A stretch of DNA of 32,000 nucleotides from Terriglobia bacterium (GCA_963699945.1 CAVOVW010000011.1:177642-209641); one strand, 5' to 3'. Shown: positions 7,145-31,044, counted from the first letter of the stretch. The notes: generated from the sequence alone by a model not told the origin. Numbers and translations are program-made.

Positions 7145-7180
7145 CTCGAAGTGGGCTGGCTGGGATTCCCCGCCGCAGTG

Positions 7181-7585: not shown

Positions 7586-7594
7586 GGGCGGCCA

Positions 7595-10421: not shown

Positions 10422-10545
10422 GACTGGAGATCCGAATTTCATAAGGAGTTGTAATCCCACCTTGACAGGTGGGGCTGAGCGGCGAATCCGTCCGATGAAG
10501 GGGCGGGACTGATTTCGTGGGTTTGCTAATTTCGGCGGCACCTTT

Positions 10546-10574
10546 TTGGCGGCGCGCAAGGTGCCTTGTATACT
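10546..10574 (+). promoter_or_regulatory. Putative sigma70-type promoter giving a leaderless exosortase mRNA
   Basis: -35 TTGGCG (10546-10551), 17-nt spacer, -10 TATACT (10569-10574). The ATG at 10582 is 8 nt downstream and has no Shine-Dalgarno. Confidence 0.3.
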
Positions 10575-10581
10575 GAAAGTC

Positions 10582-14098: not shown

Positions 14099-14130
14099 TG
14101 ATTTTGTTCGGACGACGTGTGAAGGGATTT

Positions 14131-14821
14131 ATGAAGAAAAGACATTACGATTGCTGCGGAACCGCGCGACACGCGCGGCAAGAATGAAGCGCGGCGGCTG
14201 CGCGTAGCCGGGTCGGCTCCGGCGGTGCTGTACGGTGCGGGCGGCGAATGCCGTCGCCGTGGCGGTGAATCCGAAAGAGATCAACAAGATTCTGCACAGC
14301 AAGACCGGGCACAACACGATTTTCGACATCGCCGTGAAGGGCGGCGAGACGTACGCCCGTCATGATCGTCGACTGGCAGAACGATCCCATCAAGGAAACG
14401 CTGCTGCACGTCGACCTGAAGCGCATCGATCTGACGAAGCGCATCCGCGTCAAGGTTCCGGTGCACACGCACGGCGATCCGAAGGGCGTGAAGCTGCAGG
14501 GCGGATTGCACGAACTGATCACGCGCGAAATCGAAATCGAGTGCCTGCCGGACGAGATTCCCGAAGAATTCATCGTGGAGGTGTCGGAGCTGATGATCGG
14601 CCAAAACATCCGCGCGGGCGAAATTCCGCTGGGCGGATCCGATCAAGCTGGTGAGCAATCCGCGAAGCCGTGATTTCGCACGTGGTGGCGATGAAGGTGG
14701 AAGCAGAGCCCGGCGGCACGGCGGAAGCGGCGCAGCGCCGGCAGCGGCGGCCGAGCCCGAAGTCATCAAGAAGGGCAAGAAGGAAGAAGAAGCCGCGGCC
14801 GACGAGAAGAAGAAGAAATAG
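14131..14821 (+). pseudogene. rplY: Ribosomal protein L25/Ctc, at least five frameshifts as given
   Basis: The start ATGAAGAAAAGAC has one extra A relative to the readable MKKDITIAAEPRDTRGKNEARRLR. Later segments (AVAVNPKEINKILHSKTGHNTIFDIAVKGGE; VMIVDWQNDPIKETLLHVDLKRIDLTKRIRVKVPVHTHGDPKGVKLQGG..; IKLVSNP..AVISHVVAMKVEAEP; EPEVIKKGKKEEEAAADEKKKK*) lie in different frames. Confidence 0.85.
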
Positions 14822-14875
14822 CCTGGGGCCAGGGACCTGCGAGAAAAGCTGGGGCCAGCCCGAGGAATCCTGGAC

Positions 14876-15496
14876 ATGGCGGACCAGATCGATTTCCTGG
14901 TGGTCGGGCTGGGCAATCCGGGCGAGGAATACGAGAATACGCCGCACAATCTGGGCTTTCTCGTGATGGACCGGCTGGCGGAATCGCACGGGATTCGCGT
15001 CACGCGGAAAGAAAATTTTTCGAAGGTGGGGCTAGGCACCGATGCGCGCGAAAAAAGTCGCGCTGGCCAAGCCGCAGACGTTCATGAATCTGAGCGGCCC
15101 GGCGGTAAAGGGGCTGCTCGAACGGTACGGATTAACACACGACCGTTTGATTGTGGTGTATGACGAGCTCGACGTTCCGTGGGGCGAGTTGCGGATCAGG
15201 CCGAAAGGCTCGGCGGCGGGCCACAACGGAGTGAAGAGCGTGATCGGAAGCCTGGGGACGCAGCGAGATTCCCGCGGGTCCGGTTGGGAATCCGTCCCAT
15301 TGTGAAACCAGGGCATCCGATCGGGGATGGAGCAAGTTTGTGCTCGCGCCGTTCCGGCGGGCGCAAATGAAGGAAGTGGAGGAAATGGTCGACGCGAGGA
15401 GCCGCGGCTGTGGAATCCATACTCGCTGATGGCGTCGAAAAGTCCATGGCGGTTTTTAACCGTCGCGCCCAAGGCTTAAATACAGAGGAAGAATGA
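14876..15496 (+). pseudogene. pth: Peptidyl-tRNA hydrolase, four frameshifts as given
   Basis: [22 protein letters not shown] (frame 2); [55 protein letters not shown] (frame 3); FPRVRLGIRP (frame 2); SKFVLAPFRRAQMKEVEEMVD (frame 1); AAVESILADGVEKSMAVFNRR..* (frame 2). The stop overlaps the rpsF ATG. Confidence 0.85.
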
Positions 15497-15970
15497 GAGT
15501 CTACGAAGAGTTGTTCATCTTGAAGCCCGACACCTCGGAAGAGGAAGTCGACGGCTTTATCGAGCAGATCAAGACGATTGATCACCAACGGCAAGGGGAC
15601 CGTCGACAAGGTCGACAAGTGGGGCGTGCGCAAGCTGGCCTATCGCGTGCAGAAGTACGGCGAAGGAAACTATACGCTGATCCAATTCAGCTCTGCGCCG
15701 GAACTGGTGCATGAAGTGGAACGCCGCATGCGCGTCACCGATATGGTGATCAAGTTCATCACCGTGCGCATCGACGAAAAGATGAAGAAAATCGAGAAGC
15801 GCAAGAAGGCTCGCGACAAGCGCGCGGCACGCAGACCGGCGCCGATGCCGATGCCCGCGGCTGTGGCTCCGGCGATGCCCGCGGCTCCTGTTCCAGCGGC
15901 CCCGGCCGAGCTCGCACCAGCCGCAGTGCCCGCAGGTCCGGCACCCGGATTGCCGAAAGGGGAGGAGTAA
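15493..15970 (+). pseudogene. rpsF: Ribosomal protein S6 with Ala/Pro-rich C-terminal extension, one frameshift near 15575
   Basis: [29 protein letters not shown] (frame 1) continues as [36 protein letters not shown].. (frame 2) after acgattGatcacc. Confidence 0.9.
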
Positions 15971-15973
15971 GCC

Positions 15974-16273
15974 ATGGCCGAATCCAGAGGCGGAAGGCCG
16001 ATGAGCGCGTCGCAGAGGCCGACAGGCGGCGACAAGGCCACGGCGGGGAAGAAACAATTTTTCCGGCGCAAAAAGATGTGCCGGTTCTGTGTGGATAAGA
16101 TCGACGACATCAATTATAAGGACGTTCGCTTGTTGAACTCCTTTATGTCCGAACGCGGCAAGATCACGCCGCGACGCATCTCGGGCGTATGCGCGCCGCA
16201 CCAGCGGCGTTTGGCGGAAGCGATCAAACAGGCGCGCAACATCGCGCTGATGCCGTTCTCGACGTCGATCTAG
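15974..16273 (+). CDS. rpsR: Ribosomal protein S18
   Basis: Intact 99 aa: [67 protein letters not shown]. Confidence 0.95.
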
Positions 16274-16312
16274 GGCGCCGGCGCATCACAAGAGACGCAT
16301 AAGGAAACTGTC

Positions 16313-20027: not shown

Positions 20028-20102
20028 GGCGCTATCGTCTAACGGTTAGGACGGAGCCCTCTCAAGGCTTAAATACGGGTTCGATTCCCGTTAGCGCTAC
20101 CA
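20028..20102 (+). tRNA. tRNA-Glu: tRNA-Glu (anticodon CUC), CCA encoded
   Basis: Hand-folded cloverleaf. Acceptor GGCGCTA/TAGCGCT (G1-U72 wobble). D arm GTCT-AACGGTTA-GGAC. Anticodon arm GAGCC-CT[CTC]AA-GGCTT. Variable loop AAAT. T arm ACGGG-TTCGATT-CCCGT. Discriminator A, then CCA. Confidence 0.9.
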
Positions 20103-20521
20103 ATTCCTCATACACTTACGGGCCGCAGGGCAGCACAGGGCAGCACGCGCATCGAAAATTATCGGGTTAGGGCTTGACGGCTAGAGGCTCGCAATCGAAG
20201 CGAAGGCCACTGGCTAGCGATTAAGAGTCTTGCATTCGAATGCTTGCGTTTTTCAACGGGGGGCCGCTGGGGATCGACGCGATCCGGATGCCCGGCGGGG
20301 CAAGACTCGTGGCGCTGGGCCGGTTTCAACTTGCGAGTGGCATGCCGCTTCGGCTACAAGCACCCCCTTTTTCCTGACCGCCCCGCGCGGGGCCTCGGGG
20401 ACTAAGCCTAAAGTAAAAGAGAGATTCGTGGGATCTGTTAGTCGCCCCATATATCCTAATATGATTGAAAACATGTTGGTTGTGGGCGACAATGTCAAGC
20501 AACCCGAGGGACGACAGGAAA

Positions 20522-21562
20522 ATGGCACATGCGCTGAATCTCGAGACAGCGGAGGAAGACTTTCGCAAAAACCTCGCCCGATCCATCCAGTCAGCCCACC
20601 TCAATTTTCTGATTGGATCGGGCGCCTCGTACCCGGCAATTCCCACAGCAGGCGCGGTGGAGGCAGAGATCGTCTCTCTCTTTGAAGCAGGCGACGAAGA
20701 CGGGGCCTATCTAAAGCTCTACGATTTCCTAGCTGCCATTCAAGTCCCGACCAATAGTTTGATCGTAGGCACCAGCGATATGGCGATCACCTCCACTGTG
20801 GCAAACTACACCGAGTACCTCGGCATTATCGAAGCCATCCTTCGAGAACGACGCACTTCGTTGTTGCCAAAGCAAGCTACCATCTTCACGACCAACTATG
20901 ACCTGTTTATTGAACAGGCGTCGCTTTCCTATCCCGCAATGCGGCTGAACGACGGCTTCAGCCGGGTGCCGAGCCTTTCGGGGCGAGCAGAATTTTCCTC
21001 GCGAACCTTCTTCACGTCGACTTCAAACACGGGGAATCTCTATAACTACAAGGTCGATATTCCCAGCATCAATTTGATCAAACTGCACGGCTCCCTATCT
21101 TGGAAGAAGGACGGGGACTGCGTACTGTTCTCCGTCCGGGACACGCCGCCTTTGGCAGCCGGAAAGACGGCGGCGGAGGTAAAGACATTCGTCGACGCCT
21201 ATGCGATGGTTTTGCCGGAAGCGAAGAAGTTCCACGCAACCTTGATGGACGGCACTTATTACGAACTTCTCCGGATTTTTAACAATGAGCTGGACCGCGA
21301 GGGAACGCTGCTCATTTCTTTTGGATTCTCCTTCGGTGACTCGCACATACTCGGCATCACCAAGCGCGCTCTGAAGAATCCAACCCTGAAGCTCGTCGCA
21401 TTCGCATTCAGCGAGACGGATCGGGAGAGCCTGCTGGAGCGATTTGATGGTTCAAACAACGTCGACATCATTGCGCCTGGCTCCGCCACAAACATCGACT
21501 TCGTTCGCTTCAATGCGGTGTTACGCAGCATCTTGCCGGACTTCAACGAGAAAACAAAATGA
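20522..21562 (+). CDS. SIR2-like (SIR2_2) NADase-type effector of a SIR2-HerA pair
   Basis: Motifs NFLIGSGASYP, IFTTNYDLFIEQA and IKLHGSLSW. I prefer the start MAHALNLE at 20522 (AGGAA 4 nt upstream) over the track start at 20465. The stop overlaps the herA ATG (ATGA at 21559-21562). Confidence 0.85.
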   Translation: MAHALNLETAEEDFRKNLARSIQSAHLNFLIGSGASYPAIPTAGAVEAEIVSLFEAGDEDGAYLKLYDFLAAIQVPTNSLIVGTSDMAITSTVANYTEYLGIIEAILRERRTSLLPKQATIFTTNYDLFIEQASLSYPAMRLNDGFSRVPSLSGRAEFSSRTFFTSTSNTGNLYNYKVDIPSINLIKLHGSLSWKKDGDCVLFSVRDTPPLAAGKTAAEVKTFVDAYAMVLPEAKKFHATLMDGTYYELLRIFNNELDREGTLLISFGFSFGDSHILGITKRALKNPTLKLVAFAFSETDRESLLERFDGSNNVDIIAPGSATNIDFVRFNAVLRSILPDFNEKTK

Positions 21563-23432
21563 GCGTAGCCAAGCTCACTCAGGACGCGGTTTTGAGAATC
21601 GGCGAGGTCGCGGGGGTCGATGGGCGAAAAATCTATGTGTTAGTGGACAAGAATAAGAATCTTTCCGACATGTTTTTCAATGGCGACATCCTCCGCAACA
21701 TCTCTGTCGAACAGCTATATCGAGATCCGCAAGGGTTTTCTAAGCCTGATCGGTCGCGTTGAAGGGGAAAAGATCGAGGAAGACTATCCCAGGCCACAGG
21801 TAAGGCATTCGAGACCCTGAACAGGAACAAGCGCGTTCTTACCGTGGCGCTCGCTGGATATTTAGACGAGCGCGGGATTTTCACCGGCGGGATGAAAGAG
21901 TTGCCGCTCATCGGGAACGAGGCCTACATCGTAACGCCTGAGAGAAGATCCGGCGCGTCCACAATCTTGTGCGCGAAGACGACTCTCCCGCTGTTGTGAT
22001 CGCCAGTATCGAAGGGCACGGTTTCGATATTGAGCTCCCCGTCGATGGATTGTTCAACAGTCACATCGCAATTTTTGGCAACACGGGTAGCGGTAAGTCC
22101 AATACCTTGGCATATCTCTATCAGGAATTTGTCCGCGTTCTGACTGAGCGAAATGCCGGAGCCTTCTCGGAGAACGCGCGCATTCTGATGCCTGGATTTC
22201 AACGGGGAATACGTCGGACCTCAATGCATAACACCCAACAAGAAAGTTTACAGTCTATCCACGCGACAGGATGGTGCCGACAAGATTCCGATGAACGATG
22301 ATGCTCTTCTGAACATCGAGGTTCTATCGATCCTCGCAGACGCGACCGAGAAAACACAGAAGCCCTTCTTAAGCCGGGCAGTCAAGTTCTATCGAAAAGT
22401 GATCGATGGAGACGACGGAGACCCCTCGGCATACCTGAAGAATGTCCTACGCGGCCGTGTTCGCGAAGTTCTGCAGATGAGCGATAAGTTACGGGCATTC
22501 CTGATCTTGGACTACTTCAGGGAAATATTGCCCAGCGAAAACGCGGAAGGCAATCCGGTTGATATCGCCTCCGATTTGGATTGGCACAACACATGCAGCG
22601 AATTCCGCATTCGGCCGAATGGCGCCTTCCTTGCGCAGAACCCTGCGAGCATTCCTGGCACGGTTCTCTATCAACACGTCGACACATTCCGGCTCGGAGA
22701 TAGTCTGCTCTCCACGCTCATCGTGTTTTTGTATTTGCAATTGATCTACGATCTTCTCGCGAATCGAGCCCAAAACGAGCACATAGCCCCCGTGATTAAC
22801 AGGTTGAAGGCAAAAAAAGGGGACATCGACAAGATTTTCGATATGGACAGCGATGCGCCGTTTTGGCAAAGGAACGTTGTCGTTGTCAGCCTGTCTGATG
22901 TCAATCTGGAGATGAAGAAGACCTTGCCACTGCTGCTGGCGAAGAAGCTCTACCGAGAGCAAAAGGAGACGGGACAAGGCGGGTGTCTCAGCATCGTGAT
23001 CGACGAGGCGCACAATATTCTTTCGACGGAGTCATTTCGCGAGGCGGAGAGTTGGAAGGATTATCGTCTGGAGACGTTCGAGGAGATCATAAAAGAAGGC
23101 CGCAAATTTGGCGTCTTTGTGACGATTGCCAGTCAACGGCCGAATGACATTTCACCAACGATCACCTCGCAAGCCCACAATTACTTCATCCACCGACTCT
23201 TGAACGAGCGCGATCTCAACGCCATCGCCAGCGCCGTCTCCTACATCGACCGGGTTACCGAGGAATCGATACCTACGTTGCCGACGGGAACCTGCATATT
23301 CAGTGGCATCGCGAGCCAGATCCCGTCAAAATCAATGTCAAGCCGCTGTTCGGGGCTGCCCGGCCGCAAAGCGAAACACGAAAATTCGGTGTCATTGTTC
23401 CCTCAACACGACGGGACGGCCACGAAAAATAG
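21559..23432 (+). pseudogene. herA: HerA-like (DUF87) hexameric ATPase partner of SIR2, five frameshifts as given
   Basis: N-terminal barrel segment RIGEVAGVDGRKIYVLVDKNKN..NISV / SYIEIRKGFLSLIGRVEGEKIEEDY / GKAFETLNRNKRVLTVALAGYLDERGIFTGGMKELPLIGNEAYIVTPE. Walker A is AIFGNTGSGKSNTLAYL. Walker B is LSIVIDEAHNIL. Also KEGRKFGVFVTIASQRPNDI. Frame changes occur at ~21710, ~21795, ~21945, ~22191 and ~23320. The true C-terminus (PVKINVKPLFGAARPQSETRKF..HEK*) ends at 23432. Confidence 0.85.
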
Positions 23433-23657
23433 GACGAGACTGTGTACGGCAAGTGAGTCTCCGTCGGTCCATTTCGAGCTGATCACTCAAACCAATTGGC
23501 GCAGAATTTTCGCACTTTAAGGCCCTATGCAAGGAGGCACTCTGTGTTCACGCAAGGTCCCACTTCGGTGCGACAGAGGTTCGCCGCGGTGTTCACACTT
23601 CATGATCGCCGCCTCTGTCCACCATCACTGGTATCGAAGCAAGGGGCTGCCTTCGTC

Positions 23658-24500
23658 CTACCCCACCAAGAGTATGTGAAGTAGCCGACGGCCTGCTTCC
23701 GTAATCGCCGGGGATTCTCTGAGAAGTTGAGTCGCGGAGACATCCTTCTCGATCTCGACGATGCGGCGAAGAGCAAAATCTCGGTCTATCTTGCTTTGGG
23801 CAGTGCGCGAAACTTGCTGCCACATCCACCGGAGGACGGAAAAAACGTAAATGCCGTGCAGGACGCCTTGTGTTGGCCGCGCCTGTTGTTTCCATGGCGA
23901 ATATACCGACCAGTTTGACTCGGAATTTACAAGCGGAAACAACTCCTCAAAAAGCGTGAGCTGCAAGTGCATCGTCTCGTGTATCAGGTTCTCAGCTACG
24001 CGCATGACAGAACTGCGATCGTTGCGATTCGGGGCGGAAATGAAAATAGAAAAAGGAATGGCGGGATCACTGAAGCTTGTGTCGTAATCATCGTCTTTCG
24101 CAATGATTATGTGGCAGCGCCACGCCAGTTCGGAAATGGCCGAGCATAAAAACGGATACGGCTCAATGACCTCCGAAACCGCGGCTTTCGCGAGCTCAAC
24201 GGCCTCACAACGGCGCACATCATCAGCGAGTTGAAGGCCACGTTCCGCCGCGTAACGTTGCAGTGCAGGACTGCTCGCTTCGATGAAGAGCAGCTTCCCG
24301 CTGCCGACGTGAATCGAGCTCAAAATTGAAGAATTCTGATCTGCCAAACCCGAGAGGAAGCGCTCCGTGGAGTAGGTTTCTCGAGTAAGCGAGTCACGCT
24401 CACGAAGCGTATGTTCGCGGCGCGAGCGGAGAATGGCCGACAGGGGCTTGATAGTTGGCGGAACAAGATCGGCGGGATTAAGCTCGGGAGCAGTCAGCAT
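23658..24500 (-). CDS. HExxH-motif protein of the type found beside rSAM/SPASM peptide maturases (putative alpha-KG-dependent peptide beta-hydroxylase)
   Basis: 280 aa, intact. Motif NLIHETMHLQLTLFE (H-E-T-M-H). The start overlaps the upstream 2OG oxygenase gene by 23 nt. Last gene of the minus-strand operon. Confidence 0.7.
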   Translation of the reverse strand: MLTAPELNPADLVPPTIKPLSAILRSRREHTLRERDSLTRETYSTERFLSGLADQNSSILSSIHVGSGKLLFIEASSPALQRYAAERGLQLADDVRRCEAVELAKAAVSEVIEPYPFLCSAISELAWRCHIIIAKDDDYDTSFSDPAIPFSIFISAPNRNDRSSVMRVAENLIHETMHLQLTLFEELFPLVNSESNWSVYSPWKQQARPTQGVLHGIYVFSVLRWMWQQVSRTAQSKIDRDFALRRIVEIEKDVSATQLLRESPAITEAGRRLLHILLVG

Positions 24501-25101
24501 AAAACGAAAACACCATCGTGTAGCGATCGCCTTTATGAACTTGACTTACCGCGTGATAGGATCCTTCGGAAATTTCGAAACCAAACCCTGACCGGCTGGT
24601 GGGAAGTATGACTTCATCCAGTGTTTCGACATCTGAGCCCCGAAATAGCATTAATAAGCCACCGTTTGCCTCATCCCACTCCCGGTTGAGCTGAATTATG
24701 AAGCGGTGGGTCTCGCCGTCCGGTCTTGCGTCATTGTGAATTCTGATTCTTTGCGTCTTATTCATCTTGTGTGCTGAGATGTCGACTTGTGGCTTTAGTG
24801 AAGCTCCTAGCAGCGCTCCAACGCTCTGTCGAAGTTGTCCAACCGTGGAATCGGACAATAGTGGCCTCAGATTCATAGGTAGGTTGACGTCTCGGAAGTC
24901 GAATTCGTATTGTTCGTAGAAATCCCTAAGGGCAAGTTGCCAGGGGGCTTCAGACTCGAACCACGACAGCAATGCTTGTTCGAGATCCTCGGAGACGACA
25001 GCTTCCGCTGTAAAGCAAGGAAAAGGCCGGGACCGAGATACGGCCGCGGAAAGATCAAGAGGGTTCACTGTACTCCCGGAGTATTCCGTGCATGTGGCCA
25101 A
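24478..25101 (-). CDS. 2OG-Fe(II) oxygenase superfamily protein (prolyl-hydroxylase-like fold)
   Basis: 207 aa, intact. Facial triad context RIRIHNDARPD (HxD) ... GGLLMLF ... SYHAVSQVHKGDRYTMVFSFY. Overlaps the rSAM 3' end; an alternative GTG start at 25068 would shorten the overlap. Confidence 0.8.
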   Translation of the reverse strand: MATCTEYSGSTVNPLDLSAAVSRSRPFPCFTAEAVVSEDLEQALLSWFESEAPWQLALRDFYEQYEFDFRDVNLPMNLRPLLSDSTVGQLRQSVGALLGASLKPQVDISAHKMNKTQRIRIHNDARPDGETHRFIIQLNREWDEANGGLLMLFRGSDVETLDEVILPTSRSGFGFEISEGSYHAVSQVHKGDRYTMVFSFYADCSRA

Positions 25102-26174
25102 TTACCAGCTGATAGTCGGCACAATAGATAGACGGATTTGCCAAGCCCGTCTTAGGATGCCATCTTGACAGTGGCATGCCACCTCCGCAAACGGGCAGTA
25201 ACGCACACTTTTGGCAAACGGGGCTGGTTGGATGCTGGAGCTCAGCGGAGCGCACGAACTCAGGCGAGGAAGAGATTTCGGAAAGCCGCGTATTCGAAAT
25301 AGACCACCCCTTCGCAAAACGATCGGCGCCATCGTACATGCTCTTCAGCGTGTCATTCTTTGTGATCGTTCCATCGGTGTCTATTACAGCAATGCCATAG
25401 GTTCTTTGTCCGCAGCCCTCCTTCACCGAGACTCCTCCCAACAAAAGCCGCCCCCAATCGTCAAGGATGCGGATACGCGGCGGATTCGGGTCGACGACAT
25501 AGCAATCCCAAATTGCGGCAAGCCAGCCTCCGTATTCTGTGGACTCAATTGCAGCCTTTCCAGGCGGGAGCTTCGCATAATTCCCGTCCTTGAAAAGGAA
25601 ATCGACGCTAGGAACAGCTAACGATTTGAAAAAACCGTAAATCCTCTGCGGATTCGAGGTTGGATCGACTACGCAGAGCGCCCCGGTCAGAAGCCGAGAG
25701 GCTTCTGGGTGTCGTCGAACACGATCAATCCCTGCGACAGCTCGCCCAAAGGTACCTTCGCCATTGAATGCAATACGAAAAGAATCGTGTACGTCTGCGG
25801 GACCGTCAATGCTAACGGAAAGGGTCGTATGGGTGCGGAGGCACAATTCGAGCAGGTCGTCATCGATAAGCGTTCCATTCGTCTGGATGGCCCGGCTGCA
25901 AGCCATAGGTAGGTGGTCAGCAAGACCCTGGAGCAGTGCGTGAAGAAGGTTTCGGGGAGGAGAAGGGTTCGCCCCCGTGAAGAATGACGGCAAATGGATG
26001 CTCCTGGTCCTCGTGTAACGCAGCCAGTTGCCGAATCACGTTCTCAACAGTGGAGGCGGACATGTGTTTGGGCATGCCCTGCCAACTCATATCGCCTTGC
26101 TGATAGACATAGCAGTAGCTGCAGTTAATGTTGCAGCGCGACGCCACCTTTAATAGGATTGTGTCGAGTTGCAT
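25055..26174 (-). pseudogene. FxsB-like radical SAM/SPASM peptide maturase (cyclophane-forming family), split by one frameshift in a G4/C4 run near 25954-25957
   Basis: N-terminus LKVASRCNINCSYCYVYQQGDMSWQGMP (CX3CX2C) ..AVILHGGEP. After a 1-nt shift it continues as RNLLHALLQGL..AIQTNGTLIDDDLLELC..LSVSIDGPADVHDSFR. C-terminal SPASM cysteines are CQKCALLPVCGGG...YCADY. Total length is 1120 nt, i.e. 3n+1. GAAGGA lies 6 nt upstream of the ATG. Confidence 0.88.
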
Positions 26175-26199
26175 GCCGGTCCTTCAGCTTGGTCGAGGC

Positions 26200-26394
26200 C
26201 TATCGGTTGTGGCGATTATGTGCGCGGTCGTATCCGTTCGCAATCGAAGAACCGTTCGCGGCTTCGTAGCGCACCTCGTCCATGAGCCGCTGGAGTGCGG
26301 CACTATCACGAAGCGGCTTTGGAAGCGGCGAGCGTTCGGACATCCGCTCCGATGTGGCCGTGTCTTTAGATCGTTCGGAAGAAACGTACTCCAT
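26200..26394 (-). CDS. Putative RiPP precursor peptide (64 aa), C-terminal core GYDRAHNRHNR
   Basis: Strong SD (AAAGGAG, 8 nt upstream of the ATG). Ends 25 nt upstream of the rSAM start. Acidic/Ser-rich leader with helix-like RDSAALQRLMDEVRYE. The C-terminus carries three aromatic-X-Arg triplets (YDR, HNR, HNR-COOH). Confidence 0.6.
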   Translation of the reverse strand: MEYVSSERSKDTATSERMSERSPLPKPLRDSAALQRLMDEVRYEAANGSSIANGYDRAHNRHNR

Positions 26395-26452
26395 TTAGCT
26401 ACTCCTTTGAATTGGCTCTATTGCAGCGTCTACGTAAAGTGAAACCTAGCCA

Positions 26453-26481
26453 AGTGTACCTTCTCGAACATAGAAAATCAA
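26453..26481 (-). promoter_or_regulatory. Putative sigma70-type promoter of the precursor-rSAM operon
   Basis: On the minus strand: TTGATT (26481-26476), 17 nt, TACACT (26458-26453). This is about 50 nt upstream of the precursor SD, in an AT-rich stretch. Confidence 0.35.
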
Positions 26482-26502
26482 CGAGACGCAAGGCATTTGA
26501 TA

Positions 26503-26823
26503 TCAGTAATATATAGAGCTCAAAAAAGCGATTCTTTCAACGATCAAATTTTGGCTACAAGACATGGGCGACAGAAGACCCCCGAGAACCTGATAATTCA
26601 CCATTCGCTTACATACCAGCGAGAAAATGTAATTGCGAGTATTCGGAATCTTCAGTTCGTCTATGCCTAGCGAGCATGATGGCGCGTCGAGTCTAACGCA
26701 CCAATGAGATACCATGGAGCCTGCGATGCGATTCTTTTGCATCGTTCTCGGGGCATTTTTGTCCCGGTCGACATTGTAGCGGTCCAAAATGCGCTTCAGC
26801 GTCCGCAATTGATAGTCTGACAA
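26503..26823 (-). CDS. Questionable 106-codon ORF in the AT-rich divergent intergenic region
   Basis: TTG start with no SD, no recognisable motif, atypical composition. Listed only because it is the sole long ORF in 26.4-26.85 kb. Confidence 0.2.
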   Translation of the reverse strand: MSDYQLRTLKRILDRYNVDRDKNAPRTMQKNRIAGSMVSHWCVRLDAPSCSLGIDELKIPNTRNYIFSLVCKRMVNYQVLGGLLSPMSCSQNLIVERIAFLSSIYY

Positions 26824-26847
26824 CTACCACAGGAGACTGTTTAATAC

Positions 26848-28215
26848 ATGTCCGGCGAGGCGAAACCATTTGATGCGATGCACTTCCGATCTCTGCGATT
26901 GGAGAATGTACGCGCCTTTGCCAGTTCGCAATCCCTTGAATTCGTGGACGAGTGCAACGCCGTCAGCCGCTGGAATCTGATTCTCGGAGAGAATGGGGTC
27001 GGCAAGACGACGTTGATGCAGGCTCTCGCAGTGATGCGTCCGATTCCAGCATTTGATGAGGCAGCGATCAAGGACTCCACTGATGCTGGGAATCCGACGT
27101 TGTCAAAGGCCGAACTTTCGACTCACGAAAACGACGAGATTGTTCGCTTTATCCGGCGAAATGGAAACGTGACGGCTACAATGGCGGCGGTTCTTGTGAC
27201 TGACAGTGGTGTCACGTTGGAGGTCGGAGTTGAGGCTAGTGGCACGACAAAAGAATTAAGAGATGTGCAATTCAGTGCGGCGCCCCATGAGCTCAAGTCG
27301 GAAGGTCCGTTAGTCATCGGCTACGGAGCTGGCCGCCATGTCGGTCATCGCAATCTCGCAGCCGTCGCATCTCGTGACGCCACGGCTTCTCTTTTTTCGG
27401 ATGCCATAGATCTGTATGACGCTGAAGAAATTATAGAAAAGCTGGACCACGCCGCGAAGAGCGATCCACTTGGGCCGCAAGGGCAGGATGCACTGCGGCT
27501 AAAGGCACTTACAACCGTCGTTGCGTCGTTGCTGCCGGATCTCACGCCCGAAGGTATTGAAATTCGTGGACCACGTATCGCTGGACGCGAGCCGGATCAA
27601 TGCGGCATTCACGTGCGAACGCCCTCCGGAGTGACGCCGCTTACGGATCTCAGCCTTGGTTACCAGGCAATGTTCGCTTGGACTGTCGATTTGGCTTGGC
27701 GGCTTTTCGACGCTTTTCCCCAAAGCTCCGAGCCTCTTCGCGAGAGCGCGATAGTACTCATTGACGAGGTCGATCTCCACTTACATCCTAGGTGGCAGAG
27801 AAAACTGCGTCGGCATCTGCTCGACCATTTTCCTAAGGTTCAGTTCATCGCGACCACTCATAGTCCGGTTACTGCTCAGGAGACGCTCTCAGAAGGCGGG
27901 ACCGTAGCGGTCGTACGGTGGACCGGTAGCGAAGCCCAGGTCCTGAATCGCCCAATCCCGAGGCGCGAGTGGCGTTATGATCAGCTACTAGCCAGCGAGC
28001 TCTTTGAGTTCGATTCCGATCGGAGCCAAGACGCCGAGGCGAAGCTCGGCGAACGATTATTGCTGATACGGAACACCAACCGCTCACCTCAGCAAGAGGC
28101 GCGCCTGCGGGAGTTGGATGAATTTGTTGCGTCTCTCCCCACTGCAAGCTCGCCGGGGGCACAGAGCTTCGAGGATCTGATGAAGGAATTCGTAAAGGAT
28201 ATTCGGAAGGTATAG
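26848..28215 (+). CDS. ptuA: PtuA-like AAA/ABC-type ATPase (Septu-like defence system)
   Basis: 455 aa, intact. Walker A is LILGENGVGKTTLMQAL. Walker B/D-loop region is IVLIDEVDLHLHPRWQRKLRRHLLDHFPKVQFIATTHSPV (AAA_15/21 architecture). AGGAGA lies 10 nt upstream of the ATG. Confidence 0.8.
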   Translation: MSGEAKPFDAMHFRSLRLENVRAFASSQSLEFVDECNAVSRWNLILGENGVGKTTLMQALAVMRPIPAFDEAAIKDSTDAGNPTLSKAELSTHENDEIVRFIRRNGNVTATMAAVLVTDSGVTLEVGVEASGTTKELRDVQFSAAPHELKSEGPLVIGYGAGRHVGHRNLAAVASRDATASLFSDAIDLYDAEEIIEKLDHAAKSDPLGPQGQDALRLKALTTVVASLLPDLTPEGIEIRGPRIAGREPDQCGIHVRTPSGVTPLTDLSLGYQAMFAWTVDLAWRLFDAFPQSSEPLRESAIVLIDEVDLHLHPRWQRKLRRHLLDHFPKVQFIATTHSPVTAQETLSEGGTVAVVRWTGSEAQVLNRPIPRREWRYDQLLASELFEFDSDRSQDAEAKLGERLLLIRNTNRSPQQEARLRELDEFVASLPTASSPGAQSFEDLMKEFVKDIRKV

Positions 28216-28219
28216 GACG

Positions 28220-28999
28220 GTGATCGCAATTCACAAGGGTCCTCCTCCATCTGGCCTTATTTCTGCCGGCGAGGAACATGCCAAACAGTTATGCGAGGCC
28301 TACGATGCAAATCCGGAGCGATATCAGACCAGATCGCATAGTTTGGAAATTCGCAGATCAATCTACGCAGCGGATGCAGTCAAGCAAGCGCTCGAGGCCT
28401 GCCATCACGGTAAGTGCTGCTATTGCGAGACCGTGATTCCAAAGCCCTACGCTCATTCTCATGTGGAACATTGGCGACCCAAATCGAGTTCTCGCCAGGG
28501 GGTGGGGGAAGAACCAATTTGGCCGGGATACTATTGGTTGGCCTATAGCTGGGATAACCTTTTGCTCAGCTGTTTTTTTTGCAACTCGAGTAACAAAAGC
28601 GACGTGTTTCCGATCGAGGATCCAGCGACACGCGCGAGACATCATCGCATGCGTATCGAGAACGAAATCCCGGCGATCCTGAAGCCAGATGGGAACGTGA
28701 ACCCTGCCGACCATATTACATTCCACATGGAAGTGCCAGAAGGTCTCACTGATCTTGGGCGCAAAACGATCGAGGTTCTGGGTCTTGACAGCCCGGCGCA
28801 CGAGTTGCGCCTGAGACGTTTGGAAGAGCTTCGCCAAGCCCGACAAATGTCCATTGATCTGATGCATAACTCGGATTCTGGCTCCCAAAAATGGACAGTC
28901 CTCTGGCGGACTTTTGTGGAAGTAGCGACACGGCCCGATATGCCCTATAGCGCGATGGCGGCGGCGTTCCTCGCCGCCAATCCCTTGCCTGAATTCTGA
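28220..28999 (+). CDS. ptuB: PtuB-like HNH endonuclease (TIGR02646-type)
   Basis: 259 aa, intact. HGKCCYCE...HVEHWRPKS...YWLAYSWDNLLLSCFFCNSSNKSDVFP (CxxC/H/N/CN..K HNH core). GTG start 4 nt after the ptuA stop, with AGGACG upstream. Confidence 0.8.
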   Translation: MIAIHKGPPPSGLISAGEEHAKQLCEAYDANPERYQTRSHSLEIRRSIYAADAVKQALEACHHGKCCYCETVIPKPYAHSHVEHWRPKSSSRQGVGEEPIWPGYYWLAYSWDNLLLSCFFCNSSNKSDVFPIEDPATRARHHRMRIENEIPAILKPDGNVNPADHITFHMEVPEGLTDLGRKTIEVLGLDSPAHELRLRRLEELRQARQMSIDLMHNSDSGSQKWTVLWRTFVEVATRPDMPYSAMAAAFLAANPLPEF

Positions 29000-29085
29000 A
29001 GGAAAGGCCGTGCCAGGCGCATCGGCTCCGAATAATGGCGCCTGCCCGGCGAAAATAAGACCGGCCGAATTGGTAGAATGCATCC

Positions 29086-29205
29086 ATGACTAAGGAACAA
29101 AAAATCCTCTTGGTTGGATTGGCACTCGTGGTGCTGATGCAACCCGATTGTCGGAAGGCTTGCCAAGGGATCGTGGGCAACATTCTCGGATCCTTTCTAG
29201 GCTAA
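29086..29205 (+). CDS. Possible leaderless 39-codon hydrophobic ORF (MTKEQKILLVGLALVVLMQPDCRKACQGIVGNILGSFLG)
   Basis: Extended -10 TGgTAGAAT at 29071-29079 would place the TSS at or near the A of the ATG (29086). One predicted TM helix. Followed by the hairpin at 29239-29259. Too short for the ORF track; no homology evidence. Confidence 0.3.
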   Translation: MTKEQKILLVGLALVVLMQPDCRKACQGIVGNILGSFLG

Positions 29206-29238
29206 GCGGTCTCGGTAAAGCTGGTTGGCCCGATTCGC

Positions 29239-29269
29239 GATCGAGCCGCTGGCTCGATCTTTCAAAATT
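29239..29269 (+). terminator. Putative intrinsic terminator
   Basis: Perfect 9-bp stem GATCGAGCC-gct-GGCTCGATC (29239-29259) followed by TTTCAAAATT. Confidence 0.4.
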
Positions 29270-29572
29270 GATTGGAGGAGTGTCTCCGAATGCAAACCGA
29301 TCCTAACCGCTTGAAAGTGCGAGTGTTTCTCCTTAGAAATTGGCCTGTATGACCCCCGGCGGGTCGCGTCAACCAGGTCGAATCCGGCGGTGGGTCCATC
29401 GCGTGGTTACTTCATCGCCTTCACCGAAATAGTGAAATCGCGAAGGGCTAATTCACAGCACTCGGCCGCTCTCGGCTCGTCGTCAAATGCTACCTGCCGC
29501 AGAGCGGCGGTAGAGCTCTAAAATAGCTGGCGTGGATATCAATCAATTCGAACCCGGCGACAAGTTACATCA

Positions 29573-30785
29573 TTATTGGAGATTTCTCGCCGAGTGACCT
29601 TCCGCTCCCCGCCGCTGAAATTCGTCCCATCGCAGCGCTGCCTCATCGTCCTGGCCTTTGATCGCGTGGGCGTACACGTCCGCTGTTGTCCGCACAGATG
29701 AGTGCCCCAAACGTTCGGACACTACCGGCAGCGGCACGCCGTGCGCTAGCAAGTGCGATCCGTGGCTATGACGCATGGAGTGGAGACTCGCGCCTTTGGG
29801 AAGATCGAGGCGGCGAAACAGCAACGAAACTGCTGATGACACCGAATTCGGGCGCAGCGGTGCGCCGTCCGGGTTGGTGAAGATCAAATCCAGATCAGCC
29901 CGATAGGTAGATCCGAATTCACAGCGAAACTTATTTTGCTGTGCGCGATGGACCTGGAGAGCCGCCAGCGCTGACGCCGGAATTTTGAGATCCCGCGGCC
30001 TCTCTGTTTTCGTATCCTTAAATTCCAACACTTGCCTCGTTTGCGTGATCGATCGCGAAATAACGGCACGGCCATCCTGAATGTCCGACCACCGCAGCGC
30101 GAGCAGTTCACCACGCCGTGCGCCCGTGGCCGCGGCGACTTCGAGAAATGTCGCCATGCACCACGGACCAGTTGCCGACTCGAAAACCAAAACCTGTTGC
30201 GCCGGAGTGAGCGCGATGCCTCGATGCTTCTTCGGAACGGGCGGCTCGCTATATGTCACCGGGTTGTCACCAACTAGACCCCATCGCTTAGCACGCCCGA
30301 ATGCGGACGATGTGAGACCGGCGATGTGCCGGACCGTTTTCCGGCTGAGGGGCCGGGCTTCCTTGGTCTTGCGAGTGTGGCCACCAGATTTCAGAAGCCG
30401 GTTCCATTCGCGGCTCAAATGGAGCGGCGTGATTTCTCCGAGCGGCATGGCCAGCAATTCCGGGGCGAGGTAGGCCGCCAGTTCCCGGTAACGCTCGACG
30501 GTTTCGGCGCAGCTTCTCTTCGGCGTGCTGGCGAAAGAATTCCTGGAATAGCATCGCTAGTGTGGTGGGCAGCGCCGCCGCGATCGTACTACCGCCGCGC
30601 TTGGCGAGTTCGAACTTTTGCAGTTCCTCTGCGCGGCGCTTCGCCTCGGCGTCGATCGCTTCCTGCTTGCTGGCGAACCCGACTTCACCGACCAGTCGGC
30701 GATTTTCACGGGTCGCGCCCGGCCCACTAAATAGGTAGCGCCAAACCGTCTTACCCGATTCGTATTTTCGTTTGAAAACCGGCAT
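29573..30785 (-). pseudogene. int: Tyrosine recombinase/phage-type integrase, frameshifted near 30495-30510
   Basis: The N-terminal arm-binding part MPVFKRKYESGKTVWRYLFSG..VGFASKQEAIDAEAKRRAEE..FQEFFRQHAEEKL is in one frame. ..TVERYRELAAYLAPELLAMPLGEITPLHL.. and the catalytic domain (ATGARRGELLALRWSDI; LHSMRHSHGSHLL; LGHSSVRTTADVYAH) are in another. Confidence 0.9.
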
Positions 30786-30789
30786 TCAG

Positions 30790-31044
30790 TCACACAACTA
30801 GCTCTGGTGGCCGGCGAAGTCCAGTCGGGGCCTGCGCGCCGCAGGTGCGCTCCCATTCCAGATAGGCGTGGCGAGTGACGATCCAACGCCGTCCCAGGCG
30901 GAGGCCGGGGATAATTCCCTGCTCCAACATCGCGTAGACCGTCAGACGACCGATATTCAGTCGCCTGGCGATCTCAGGCGCCGAGATTCGGCTGCTGGGC
31001 GACTCGGCCAATTCTTCGGCGATTGCCTGAGGTTTGTCGGTCAT
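30790..31044 (-). CDS. Excisionase/AlpA-like helix-turn-helix DNA-binding protein
   Basis: 84 aa. ISAPEIARRLNIGRLTVYAMLEQGIIPGLRLGRRWIV is a typical HTH_17/excisionase pattern. Ends 4 nt before the integrase ATG. Confidence 0.7.
   Translation of the reverse strand: MTDKPQAIAEELAESPSSRISAPEIARRLNIGRLTVYAMLEQGIIPGLRLGRRWIVTRHAYLEWERTCGAQAPTGLRRPPELVV

What the first reader, a model, noticed from the sequence alone, without database searches (positions are those of the whole stretch)
20103..29572. Three unrelated modules packed back-to-back between the tRNA and the integrase: a defence-cargo hotspot
The order is SIR2-HerA (+), the RiPP-like operon (-), Septu-like ptuAB (+), and a small hydrophobic ORF (+). 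Short intergenic spacers separate them and no housekeeping gene intervenes.

Defence systems are known to cluster in islands and in cargo hotspots of integrative elements and satellites near the integrase. An unexplained operon flanked on both sides by validated systems is the classical signature used to discover new defence systems.
Basis: partly seen in the sequence, partly recalled or inferred. Interest (0 to 1): 0.6.

Follow-up and report, generated by a model that had tools for sequence, protein, structure and literature searches.

The report
Defence cargo bay beside tRNA-Glu integrase
The 9.5 kb between a tRNA-Glu gene and an integrase is the variable cargo slot of a mobile element family; here it holds two phage-defence units, one of them a pairing of the Septu nuclease system with a ring-crosslinked peptide (Yhh) operon that recurs across phyla and that I could not find described in the papers searched.

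Summary
It runs tRNA-Glu(CTC), SIR2-HerA, a minus-strand RiPP operon, PtuA-PtuB, then integrase-excisionase-methylase up to the contig end.

The hotspot reading holds. This integrase family occurs in 26 of 94 genomes of the genus and targets the last 27 nt of tRNA-Glu. The gap between that site and the integrase is 88-961 nt in seven elements. It is 6.8, 9.3 and 9.5 kb in three, which carry Tiamat (G064), PD-T4-6 (G014) and the cargo seen here.

"Three unrelated modules" and "unexplained operon" do not hold. The operon belongs to the characterised YhhA/B/C triceptide family, plus an HExxH hydroxylase. It is genetically tied to the Septu pair: PtuAB lies directly beside the Yhh operon in 53 of 68 assessable loci from many phyla, in four gene arrangements. 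So the cargo is two units, SIR2-HerA and a six-gene Septu-Yhh cassette.

No paper in the searched library links Septu to triceptides. This scan had already noted the link on other DNA.

The broken frames (herA five, yhhB one, int one) cannot be read as decay, because rpoC and prs are broken in the same assembly. The right end of the element is not assembled.

The parts
20028..20102 (+). tRNA-Glu (anticodon CTC). Its last 27 nt (20076-20102) are the attachment core of the element family.
   Evidence: ARAGORN and Rfam. Exact or near-exact second copies of the 27-mer bound elements of 10.9, 36.7 and 37.1 kb in G100, G103 and G104.
20522..21562 (+). SIR2-family protein of the SIR2-HerA defence pair. 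The frame is intact. The ORF opens at 20465, and homology starts at the ATG at 20522.
   Evidence: PADLOC PDLC04080 4e-111 and Pfam SIR2_2. 63% identity to the G005 SIR2.
21559..23432 (+). HerA ATPase of the SIR2-HerA pair. Its start overlaps the SIR2 stop by 4 nt. It changes frame five times, near 21710-21738, 21784-21793, 21942-21945, 22168-22199 and 23322-23331.
   Evidence: PADLOC PDLC04097 matches on three ORF pieces. 57% identity over 606 columns to the intact G005 HerA, with frame changes.
23658..24500 (-). aKG-HExxH-type peptide beta-hydroxylase, the last gene of the Yhh operon.
   Evidence: NCBIfam TIGR04267 3e-30. A homologue follows YhhC in 73 of 80 loci.
24478..25101 (-). YhhC, a 2OG-Fe(II) oxygenase. 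In the characterised system it is an Asp beta-hydroxylase.
   Evidence: NCBIfam NF041706 5e-68, 228 bits against a cut-off of 150. Function from PMC12186529.
25055..26174 (-). YhhB, a radical SAM/SPASM three-residue cyclophane synthase, with one frame change near 25950-25957.
   Evidence: NCBIfam NF041707 on two ORF pieces, 104 + 318 bits. 69-77% identity to the Bryobacterales YhhB in two frames.
26200..26394 (-). YhhA precursor peptide of 64 aa, ending in YDR-A-HNR-HNR.
   Evidence: NCBIfam NF041705 4e-13, 49 bits against a cut-off of 36. The same core is nearly invariant in 69 of the 70 precursor ORFs picked out across the 80 loci.
26848..28215 (+). PtuA, the Septu ABC-type ATPase. It is divergent from yhhA across a 453-nt spacer.
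   Evidence: PADLOC PDLC00304 3e-147 over the full length, and Pfam AAA_21/AAA_15. Walker A, Walker B and H-loop motifs are present.
28220..28999 (+). PtuB, the Septu HNH nuclease, starting 4 nt after ptuA.
   Evidence: PADLOC PDLC00339 1e-79 over the full length. The CxxC, HxEH and CxxCN motifs are present and conserved.
29086..29205 (+). A 39-codon hydrophobic ORF. Its status as a gene is unsupported.
   Evidence: Listed by the ORF finder only. No homologue in any fetched locus or elsewhere in G000.
29573..30785 (-). Tyrosine integrase pointing towards the tRNA, with one frame change near 30510-30520.
   Evidence: NCBIfam Xer-like matches. 55-64% identity (by ORF piece and program) to the intact G019 integrase, in two frames. 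The family is found in 26 of 94 genomes of the genus.
30790..31044 (-). Excisionase-family DNA-binding protein.
   Evidence: NCBIfam TIGR01764 2e-08. Conserved next to the integrase in G019, G104, G064 and on G000 contig C13.
31273..31551 (-). Small backbone protein of 92 aa, function unknown.
   Evidence: Homologues sit between the methylase and the excisionase in G019 and on G000 contig C13.
31548..32000 (-). C-terminal part of a ParB-domain/N6-adenine DNA methyltransferase, cut off by the contig end.
   Evidence: NCBIfam methyltransferase matches. 72% identity to residues 292-427 of the G019 protein. ParB and DpnA-type matches for that protein in the PDB. The contig ends 2 nt after the window.

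Best explanation
The stretch 20103-29572 is the variable cargo bay of a tRNA-Glu(CTC)-targeting integrative element that is common in this acidobacterial genus.

**Backbone and integration.** The backbone, in order of transcription, is an HTH_17 protein, a ~200-aa protein, a ParB-methyltransferase, a small protein, an excisionase and a tyrosine integrase. Only the last four lie in the window. The element recombines with the last 27 nt of the tRNA gene. Cargo sits between that site and the 3' end of the integrase gene.

**Cargo here.** There are two independent units.
- SIR2-HerA.
- A six-gene cassette in which Septu PtuA-PtuB is joined to the YhhA-YhhB-YhhC-HExxH triceptide operon.

**What is shown.**
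- The identity of the genes.
- The attachment core and the element boundaries in relatives.
- The empty-or-filled state of the gap.
- The cross-phylum linkage of PtuAB with Yhh.

**What is inferred.**
- Cargo is exchanged by recombination between related elements. The tRNA/attachment site on one side and the integrase on the other would serve as shared anchors.
- The Yhh peptide has an invariant, basic core with three cyclophane rings. No exporter or protease gene is conserved beside the operon. I infer that it acts inside the cell together with PtuAB. It could hold PtuAB in check or sense infection, much as the retron RT-msDNA does for PtuAB in retron Ec78/Eco7.
For: **Genes.**

**Left boundary.** The chromosome is syntenic with G007 up to the permease and tRNA. 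G+C drops after the tRNA.

**Attachment core.**
- A 27-nt direct repeat of the tRNA 3' end lies 928 nt downstream in G010.
- Further copies bound elements of 10.9, 36.7 and 37.1 kb in G100, G103 and G104.

**Gap between attachment site and integrase.**
- The sizes are 88, 104, 108, 108, 536, 736 and 961 nt, against 6837, 9302 and 9470 nt.
- Filled gaps: TmtA 5e-169 in G064 and PD-T4-6 4e-136 in G014.
- JetA, JetC and JetD lie downstream of the related G019 integrase.
- A PycTM-like effector lies between two further integrase copies on G000 contig C13.
- No cargo system recurs between elements.

**Septu-Yhh unit.**
- YhhC was found in 5 of 401 genomes of the phylum, and every one has PtuA/PtuB next to the operon.
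- PtuAB is adjacent in 53 of 80 loci from many phyla (53 of 68 assessable). Gaps run from -14 to 881 nt.
- The arrangements are 30 convergent, 12 + 4 co-directional and 7 divergent.
- PtuA and YhhB pairwise distances correlate (Mantel r = 0.87; 0 of 2000 permutations reach it).
- The catalytic motifs of PtuA and PtuB are conserved in at least 90% of sequences.
- No other gene is conserved in the flanks of 25 loci.
- SIR2 and HerA are absent from all 80 loci.

**Precedent.** Accessory modules are known to regulate PtuAB (PMC12819146, PMC12673091).
Against: - The right end of the element (attR) is not in the assembly. No second copy of the core exists in G000, even allowing 4 mismatches, so the cargo cannot be shown to lie inside one excisable unit.
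- Only three filled gaps were found. Most of their other ORFs match nothing in Pfam or PADLOC.
- Nine further integrase copies have no attachment copy in the expected orientation within the 4-12 kb fetched downstream.
- The G019 integrase points away from the tRNA.
- Yhh operons exist without PtuAB (15 assessable loci). PtuAB of the same subfamily exists without Yhh (G198, G210). The link is therefore facultative.
- The distance correlation is partly expected from shared ancestry.
- No experiment links any triceptide to phage defence.
- herA, yhhB and int are not open reading frames as assembled.
Confidence: 0.7

Rival explanations
1. Accretion. The 9.5 kb is the remnant of one or more older, separate islands that integrated at tRNA-Glu and lost their own integrase. 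The integrase-bearing element inserted later at the distal attachment copy. On this reading the modules are neighbours by history, not cargo of that element.
For: Tandem arrays do form at this site. In G104 a second integrase follows the distal 27-mer of the first element. In G009 two integrases face one attachment copy. A 0.9-kb remnant flanked by two cores exists in G010.
Against: No attachment-like sequence lies between the cargo and the integrase in the window, G014 or G064. Local alignment scores there are 16-20, against 62-76 for true copies. No second core copy exists anywhere in G000 with up to 4 mismatches.
Confidence: 0.2
2. The island is a decaying, non-functional remnant. herA, yhhB and int are true pseudogenes, so the hotspot is a graveyard rather than a working defence locus.
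For: There are seven frame changes in about 11 kb, five of them in the 1.9 kb of herA. sir2, ptuA and ptuB have none.
Against: The same assembly breaks essential genes.
- rpoC is split into two frames.
- The only prs gene is split.
- Window 12.8-16.3 kb has at least 6 frame changes against G007.

The genome is a 16-contig MAG scored 74% complete. The frame changes are clustered, which fits local assembly error.
Confidence: 0.25
3. The Yhh operon is an ordinary secreted antimicrobial or signalling peptide cluster. It merely travels with PtuAB on mobile DNA, and the adjacency has no functional meaning.
For: The flanks of the cassette are rich in mobile-element genes: topoisomerase, DDE transposases, integrases, resolvases and a TrwC relaxase. 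Yhh occurs without PtuAB in 15 assessable loci and on a Vibrio conjugative plasmid.
Against: - The adjacency survives down to about 35% PtuA identity, in four different arrangements, and across many phyla. Nothing else in the flanks is conserved.
- No exporter, protease or immunity gene is conserved with the operon.
- The core peptide is nearly invariant across phyla, which is unusual for a competition peptide.
Confidence: 0.15
4. The cassette is a functional unit but not an anti-phage one. The PtuAB-like ATPase/HNH pair would serve the peptide pathway, for example in self-protection, plasmid or element maintenance, or an addiction module.
For: No anti-phage test exists for PtuAB of this subfamily, and none for the Yhh-linked cassette. 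Where PtuAB is absent, a HEAT-repeat or Sel1-repeat protein sits directly beside the operon. That suggests a peptide-centred system with exchangeable partners.
Against: PtuA and PtuB match the Septu models over their full length at 3e-147 and 1e-79. The same subfamily occurs as a stand-alone PtuAB pair. In this window the cassette sits in a slot that holds defence systems in other elements.
Confidence: 0.15

Closest known systems
Defence hotspots of integrative elements and prophages: P2 phage and P4 satellite hotspots (PMC9122126), E. coli defence islands at integration sites (PMC10121019), core defence hotspots of Pseudomonas aeruginosa (PMC10250203)
   Same: There is a fixed position in a family of related mobile elements, next to the integrase and attachment site. 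It is either empty or carries a different anti-phage system in each element.
   Different: The backbone is different and uncharacterised (ParB-methyltransferase, HTH_17 protein, excisionase, tyrosine integrase). No phage or satellite gene was recognised. The host is an acidobacterial genus, and the target is tRNA-Glu(CTC). The sample is small, with three filled and seven empty gaps.
Septu (PtuA ATPase + PtuB HNH nuclease) and its co-option by retron Ec78/Eco7 (PMC12819146, PMC12673091, PMC13376987)
   Same: The pair shows full-length matches to the PtuA and PtuB models, overlapping or adjacent genes, and conserved Walker and HNH motifs. As in the retron case, PtuAB is genetically coupled to an extra module that is not itself a nuclease.
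   Different: The coupled module is a four-gene RiPP operon (precursor, radical SAM, 2OG oxygenase, HExxH hydroxylase), not a reverse transcriptase with a non-coding RNA. No functional data exist, and the coupling is facultative.
YhhA/YhhB/YhhC triceptide system (Sugiyama et al., J Am Chem Soc 2022, as cited in PMC11002830; also PMC11499958, PMC12186529; NCBIfam NF041705-NF041707)
   Same: The precursor ends in YDR-x-HNR-HNR. YhhB is reported to link Tyr-C3 and His-C2 to Arg-C-beta on exactly these motifs. YhhC is reported to make erythro-beta-hydroxy-Asp.
   Different: A fourth gene, the HExxH hydroxylase, is present, and the neighbouring PtuAB pair is conserved. The papers read here do not mention either in connection with Yhh. 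The primary paper is not held in the library, so its gene-cluster figures could not be checked. yhhB is frame-shifted in this assembly.
SIR2-HerA anti-phage system (PADLOC models PDLC04080 / PDLC04097)
   Same: A SIR2_2-domain protein is followed, with a 4-nt overlap, by a HerA/FtsK-type ATPase. Both match one PADLOC subfamily strongly.
   Different: herA is broken by five frame changes as assembled. The subtype is rare in the genus, found in 3 of 94 genomes.
Anti-phage lanthipeptides (bioRxiv 10.1101/2024.06.26.600839)
   Same: They set a precedent that a RiPP gene cluster can act in phage defence.
   Different: They belong to a different RiPP class, and that abstract describes no link to a nuclease/ATPase defence pair.

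Membership tests
Septu | PtuA: ABC/AAA_15-AAA_21 ATPase with Walker A, Walker B and H-loop motifs | tested here: met
   PDLC00304 3e-147, residues 9-454 against model positions 8-441 of 444. Pfam AAA_21 7e-21. The motifs GENGVGKT, IVLIDE and HSP are present.
Septu | PtuB: HNH nuclease encoded directly downstream of ptuA on the same strand | tested here: met
   PDLC00339 1e-79, residues 1-254 against model positions 1-256 of 261. The spacer is 4 nt. The CxxC, HxEH and CxxCN motifs are present.
Septu | Protection against phage | not testable with these tools
   This needs plaque assays with the cloned genes.
SIR2-HerA | SIR2-domain protein with an adjacent HerA ATPase in one operon | tested here: met
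   PDLC04080 4e-111. PDLC04097 on three ORF pieces (9e-12, 2e-19, 8e-115). There is a 4-nt ATGA overlap.
SIR2-HerA | Intact herA reading frame | tested here: inconclusive
   There are five frame changes against the G005 HerA.
YhhABC triceptide | Precursor with a C-terminal Tyr-x-Arg / His-x-Arg / His-x-Arg core | tested here: met
   NF041705 49.2 bits against a cut-off of 36. The peptide ends in YDRAHNRHNR.
YhhABC triceptide | YhhB radical SAM/SPASM maturase above the curated cut-off | tested here: inconclusive
   The two frame-shifted pieces score 104.3 and 318.5 bits against a cut-off of 445. They cover model positions 1-69 and 76-367 of 369. Identity to a Bryobacterales YhhB is 69-77%.
YhhABC triceptide | YhhC 2OG-Fe(II) oxygenase above the curated cut-off | tested here: met
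   NF041706 228.4 bits against a cut-off of 150.
YhhABC triceptide | Cyclophane cross-links and beta-hydroxy-Asp in the product | not testable with these tools
   The chemistry is known only from the characterised homologue (PMC11002830, PMC12186529).
tRNA-targeting integrative element with a cargo hotspot | Tyrosine integrase next to a tRNA, with the element bounded by direct repeats of the tRNA 3' end | tested here: inconclusive
   Met in relatives: G100 10.9 kb, G103 36.7 kb (25 of 27 nt), G104 37.1 kb. In the window only the tRNA-side copy exists, the contig ends inside the element, and G000 has no second copy.
tRNA-targeting integrative element with a cargo hotspot | The same position is empty in some related elements and filled with different cargo in others | tested here: met
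   Gaps are 88-961 nt in seven elements and 6.8-9.5 kb in three. Recognised cargo: Tiamat; PD-T4-6; SIR2-HerA with Septu-Yhh. No cargo is shared.
P2 prophage / P4 satellite hotspots | Phage or satellite backbone genes (capsid, terminase, primase, cos-related genes) | not tested
Apart from the integrase module, the elements share almost no genes. The HTH_17 backbone protein has no PDB relative.

The most novel reading that the evidence does not exclude
The Yhh triceptide operon is a working component of a Septu-type immune system.

On this reading, the intracellular peptide carries three cyclophane rings and a hydroxylated residue, and it binds PtuAB. It could act as a labile brake or as an infection sensor, so that loss or alteration of the peptide during infection releases the nuclease.

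Where PtuAB is missing, the HEAT-repeat or Sel1-repeat neighbours would be alternative partners of the same peptide.

This would be the first RiPP acting as a regulatory subunit of a nuclease-based defence system.
Probability: 0.35. Interest if true: 0.8.

Novelty: new variant of a known kind. Interest (0 to 1): 0.6.

Why it matters
**The hotspot.** A defence-cargo slot in an integrative element is a familiar phenomenon. Here it is documented for an acidobacterial element family, and it gives a practical handle. The att-integrase gap of this family can be mined across soil metagenomes for cargo. The filled gaps of G014 and G064 hold at least seven ORFs with no Pfam or PADLOC match.

**The Septu-Yhh pairing.** This is the less ordinary result.
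- The biological role of triceptides is unknown.
- How Septu senses infection is only partly understood.
- The six-gene cassette, found with PtuAB adjacent in 53 of 80 YhhC-bearing loci from many phyla, gives both questions one concrete, clonable test object.
- Several loci come from cultured strains, such as Nitrosomonas oligotropha, Hymenobacter, Cupriavidus, Novosphingobium and Mesorhizobium.

If the peptide regulates PtuAB, that would extend what was learned from retron Ec78. It would show that PtuAB is a general effector which different sensing modules plug into.

Tried and rejected
- **Direct repeats of the tRNA 3' end.** I searched the window and the whole assembly for them to find the right end of the element. 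None was found, even with 4 mismatches.
- **The chromosomal right flank.** I tried to locate it through genes that follow tRNA-Glu in seven relatives. Those genes are not syntenic with each other, and at most paralogue-level matches (up to about 72% identity, scattered over other contigs) exist in G000.
- **An internal attachment copy next to the integrase.** This was the accretion test. None was found.
- **Exact-sequence look-up of PtuA in public assemblies.** It is not on record.
- **The primary triceptide paper.** It is not held in the library.
- **Batch scans through alignments.** Scanning many neighbour ORFs at once returns only the 25 commonest families. With PADLOC, redundant kinase or Jet models then fill the list, so the content of 15 integrase-downstream regions was not resolved.
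- **Divergent PtuAB in the Ptu-less Yhh loci.** I considered and rejected this. Profiles built from 48 PtuA and 47 PtuB sequences do not match the recurrent HEAT-repeat and Sel1-repeat neighbours, which are repeat proteins. They give only weak PtuA-type ATPase matches in three other loci.
- **The 39-codon ORF as a conserved gene.** I considered and rejected this for lack of any homologue.
- **Recurrence of this window's cargo in other elements of the family.** None was found.

Full report
**Anatomy**

The window is G000 contig C11:177642-209641, and the contig ends 2 nt after the window. From left to right:

- tRNA-Glu(CTC) lies at 20028-20102.
- SIR2 (20522-21562) is followed by HerA (21559-23432) with a 4-nt overlap.
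- On the minus strand lie an aKG-HExxH hydroxylase (23658-24500), YhhC (24478-25101), YhhB (25055-26174) and the 64-aa precursor YhhA (26200-26394).
- After a 453-nt divergent spacer come PtuA (26848-28215) and PtuB (28220-28999).
- A 573-nt spacer follows, holding a 39-codon hydrophobic ORF.
- Then, on the minus strand, come a tyrosine integrase (29573-30785), an excisionase (30790-31044), a 92-aa protein and the 3' part of a ParB-methyltransferase gene, which the contig end cuts.

The assignments rest on these results:

- PADLOC: SIR2 4e-111; HerA on three pieces; PtuA 3e-147; PtuB 1e-79.
- Pfam.
- NCBIfam: YhhA 49 bits against a cut-off of 36; YhhC 228 against 150; YhhB 104 + 318 bits on two pieces; HExxH 3e-30; excisionase.

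G+C is 0.536 in 20103-29572 against 0.592 to the left. The 39-codon ORF has no homologue anywhere I could look.

**Broken frames and assembly quality**

- herA changes frame five times relative to an intact HerA from G005, which is 57% identical.
- yhhB changes frame once near 25950.
- The integrase changes frame once near 30510-30520.

This cannot be taken as decay. G000 is a 16-contig MAG scored 74% complete. In it:

- rpoC is split into two frames.
- The only prs gene, at window 13167-13956, is split.
- Housekeeping genes at 12.8-16.3 kb show at least 6 frame changes against the syntenic G007 region.

Frame errors in this assembly come in clusters.

**The element and its attachment site**

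The left flank is conserved chromosome: the amino-acid permease has orthologues of 66-88% identity throughout the genus. Seven relatives have the same permease/tRNA-Glu junction.

- What follows the tRNA in those seven is not syntenic between them. By Pfam it is mostly ordinary metabolic genes. No integrase of this family was found next to the tRNA in six of them.
- The exception is G019, which has a related methylase-excisionase module, an Mrr-type nuclease and an integrase followed by JetA, JetC and JetD.
- G010 has a 27-nt direct repeat of the tRNA 3' end 928 nt downstream.

The integrase family, at 40-72% identity to the G019 protein, is present in 26 of 94 genomes of the genus, often in several copies. 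G000 itself has at least three more copies of the backbone, and three of the four copies lie at or within about 7 kb of a contig end.

In G100, G103 and G104 the 27-mer recurs 10.9, 36.7 and 37.1 kb from the tRNA, which bounds the elements. In G104 a second integrase follows the distal copy, forming a tandem array.

Apart from the integrase module (integrase, excisionase, ParB-methyltransferase, a ~200-300-aa protein and an HTH_17 protein), the elements share almost nothing. No phage gene was recognised.

**The hotspot test**

I measured the distance from the attachment core to the integrase stop, taking only copies in the orientation seen in the window.

| Element | Gap (nt) |
|---|---|
| G103 | 88 |
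| G009 | 104 |
| G100 | 108 |
| G016 (tRNA partly masked) | 108 |
| G104, second element | 536 |
| G104 | 736 |
| G106 | 961 |
| G064 | 6837 |
| G014 | 9302 |
| Window | 9470 |

- The G064 gap holds a 1439-aa Tiamat TmtA (5e-169) and two unknown ORFs.
- The G014 gap holds a PD-T4-6 kinase (4e-136, full length) next to the integrase, and at least five ORFs without any Pfam or PADLOC match.
- None of the window's cargo genes, nor the Jet or PycTM genes, recurs in the 20 other integrase-downstream regions.
- I found no attachment-like sequence between cargo and integrase in the three filled cases.

So the slot is either empty or filled with about 7-9.5 kb that differs in every element and includes known defence systems.

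The metabolic genes seen after the tRNA belong to relatives where no such integrase was found next to it.

Limits: there are only three filled gaps. Nine integrase copies have no attachment copy in the expected orientation within the 4-12 kb fetched downstream. The right end of the window's element is missing.

**The 'unexplained' operon is a known RiPP family**

YhhA ends in YDR-A-HNR-HNR. According to PMC11002830 and PMC11499958, which cite Sugiyama et al. 2022, YhhB cross-links Tyr-C3 and His-C2 to the beta-carbon of Arg on exactly these motifs. According to PMC12186529, YhhC makes erythro-beta-hydroxy-Asp in triceptide biosynthesis. PGAP already names yhhA, yhhB and yhhC on a Vibrio conjugative plasmid. 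The chemistry is therefore not new. The biological role of the peptide is unknown.

**The operon is not independent of Septu**

YhhC is rare in the phylum, found in 5 of 401 genomes. In all four other genomes the YhhA-B-C-HExxH operon lies directly beside PtuA/PtuB homologues of only 34-38% identity to the window's. It is convergent in one genome and co-directional, as PtuA-PtuB-YhhA-B-C-HExxH, in three.

A scan of one genome per species found 157 YhhC loci, of which the best 80 were fetched.

- They come from Acidobacteriota, Alpha-, Beta- and Gammaproteobacteria, Bacteroidota, Chloroflexota, Gemmatimonadota, Actinomycetota, Thermodesulfobacteriota and others.
- PtuA/PtuB is adjacent in 53 of 80, or 53 of 68 with enough flank to judge. 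Gaps run from -14 to 881 nt.
- There are four arrangements: 30 convergent, 12 Ptu-then-Yhh, 4 Yhh-then-Ptu, and 7 divergent as here.
- PtuA and YhhB pairwise distances correlate (Mantel r = 0.87; 0 of 2000 permutations). Shared ancestry contributes to this. Even so, cassettes more than 65% identical occur in different phyla, for example L088 from a gammaproteobacterium, L122 from Gemmatimonadota and the Vicinamibacterales loci.
- Walker and HNH motifs are conserved in at least 90% of the linked PtuA and PtuB sequences.
- The precursor core Y-[D/N]-R-x-[H/Y]-N-R-H-N-R and a leader motif are nearly invariant.
- In 25 diverse loci no other neighbour is conserved. There is no exporter or protease. 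The flanks are heterogeneous, with many mobile-element genes.
- SIR2 and HerA are absent from all 80 loci.

The link is facultative.

- 15 assessable loci lack PtuAB. Five of them have a convergent HEAT-repeat protein directly after the operon, and two have a Sel1-repeat protein; related neighbours occur in two loci with short flanks.
- Two of the seven phylum genomes with this PtuA subfamily have PtuAB alone.

**Mechanism: shown and inferred**

Shown:
- Gene identities.
- The 27-nt core.
- Element boundaries in relatives.
- Empty and filled gaps.
- The cross-phylum neighbourhood of PtuAB and Yhh.

Inferred:
- The integrase recombines the element with the tRNA 3' end.
- The cargo slot is refreshed by recombination between related elements, which share the attachment site on one side and the integrase on the other.
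- SIR2-HerA acts as in its characterised relatives.
- The Yhh peptide acts inside the cell with PtuAB.

The last point is argued from the conserved adjacency, the invariant core and the lack of export genes. It is also argued from precedent: retron Ec78/Eco7 sequesters PtuAB through its RT-msDNA and releases it on infection (PMC12819146, PMC12673091), and Septu cleaves tRNA-Tyr (PMC13096335). It remains a hypothesis. I put it at about one in three.

**Comparison with what is known, and novelty**

- Hotspots of defence cargo in prophages, satellites and islands are well described (PMC9122126, PMC10121019, PMC10250203). This is a new instance in a different element family and phylum.
- Two full-text searches that combined Septu or PtuA with RiPP, triceptide or radical SAM/SPASM terms returned no relevant paper. 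A large defence-prediction preprint does not mention the link either.
- Anti-phage lanthipeptides are the nearest precedent for a defensive RiPP.
- This scan had already noted the Yhh-Septu adjacency on other DNA (notes e1-2101895 and e1-2101896, 28 of 30 loci). My count on a separate set of loci agrees.

**Verdict**

The finding is real. Its hotspot interpretation is supported on a small sample. It needs correcting on one point that makes it more interesting: the cargo is SIR2-HerA plus one composite Septu-Yhh cassette, not three unrelated modules.

Noticed in passing
window 12800-16300: There is a dense cluster of frame changes in conserved housekeeping genes compared with the syntenic G007 region. 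The only prs gene of the genome (13167-13956) is among them. rpoC on contig C2 is also split. This points to clustered indel errors in the assembly.
   Followed up: partly
G000 contig C13:447000-459781 (L036): Two further copies of the integrase backbone face each other. One runs HTH_17 protein, ~200 aa, methyltransferase, small protein, excisionase, integrase. The other is an excisionase-integrase pair. The 4.6 kb between them holds three ORFs with no Pfam or PADLOC match (121, 457 and 160 aa). It also holds a PycTM/2TM-type effector (1e-28) preceded by short broken ORFs that might be a frame-shifted cyclase.
   Followed up: partly
G000 contig ends (C11 end, C13 end, C3 start): Three of the four copies of the methylase-excisionase-integrase backbone lie at or within about 7 kb of a contig end (the fourth is the inner C13 copy). 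The repeated element is probably what breaks the assembly here.
   Followed up: no
L028 (G019:C49): A related integrase is followed on the same strand by JetA, JetC and JetD (JetB was not scanned). An Mrr-type nuclease lies between the tRNA-Glu and the methylase module. This integrase points away from the tRNA, unlike all the others.
   Followed up: partly
L049 (G014:C5) 3016-9011 and L060 (G064:C32) 9991-11899: The filled gaps between tRNA and integrase in these relatives contain at least seven ORFs of 146-433 aa with no Pfam or PADLOC match. They sit next to PD-T4-6 and Tiamat, which makes them candidates for unrecognised defence genes. G014 looks like another long-read assembly with frame-split genes (its permease is split), so some may be fragments.
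   Followed up: partly
L087, L091, L092, L108, L111; L116, L154, L155, L135: Yhh operons that lack PtuAB have a different conserved convergent neighbour directly after the HExxH gene. It is either a ~460-490-aa protein with C-terminal HEAT-type repeats or a ~705-749-aa protein with N-terminal Sel1 repeats. These may be alternative partners of the peptide.
   Followed up: partly
69 YhhA precursors in L082-L161: The core Y-[D/N]-R-x-[H/Y]-N-R-H-N-R and the leader motif (L-A-R-L-I-E-E-V-R-N-type) are almost invariant from Acidobacteriota to Bacteroidota and Proteobacteria. That is unusual for a competition peptide and points to a conserved target.
   Followed up: partly
L065/L072 (G104:C5) and L044 (G009:C11): There are tandem and head-to-head arrangements of elements of this family around single copies of the 27-nt core. 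In G104 there are two integrases about 37 kb apart, each followed by a core copy. In G009 two integrases converge on one core copy.
   Followed up: no
L024 (G016:C39) about 18256: The tRNA-Glu next to the integrase contains two masked bases (NN), so ARAGORN does not call it. The attachment core is still recognisable 108 nt from the integrase stop.
   Followed up: no
L164 (Vibrio echinoideorum plasmid p1, NZ_AP025485.1): PGAP-annotated yhhA, yhhB and yhhC sit on a conjugative plasmid without an HExxH gene or PtuAB. Nearby are a Ser/Thr kinase, a PP2C phosphatase, a 660-aa AAA ATPase, a recombinase and DUF2971 genes.
   Followed up: no
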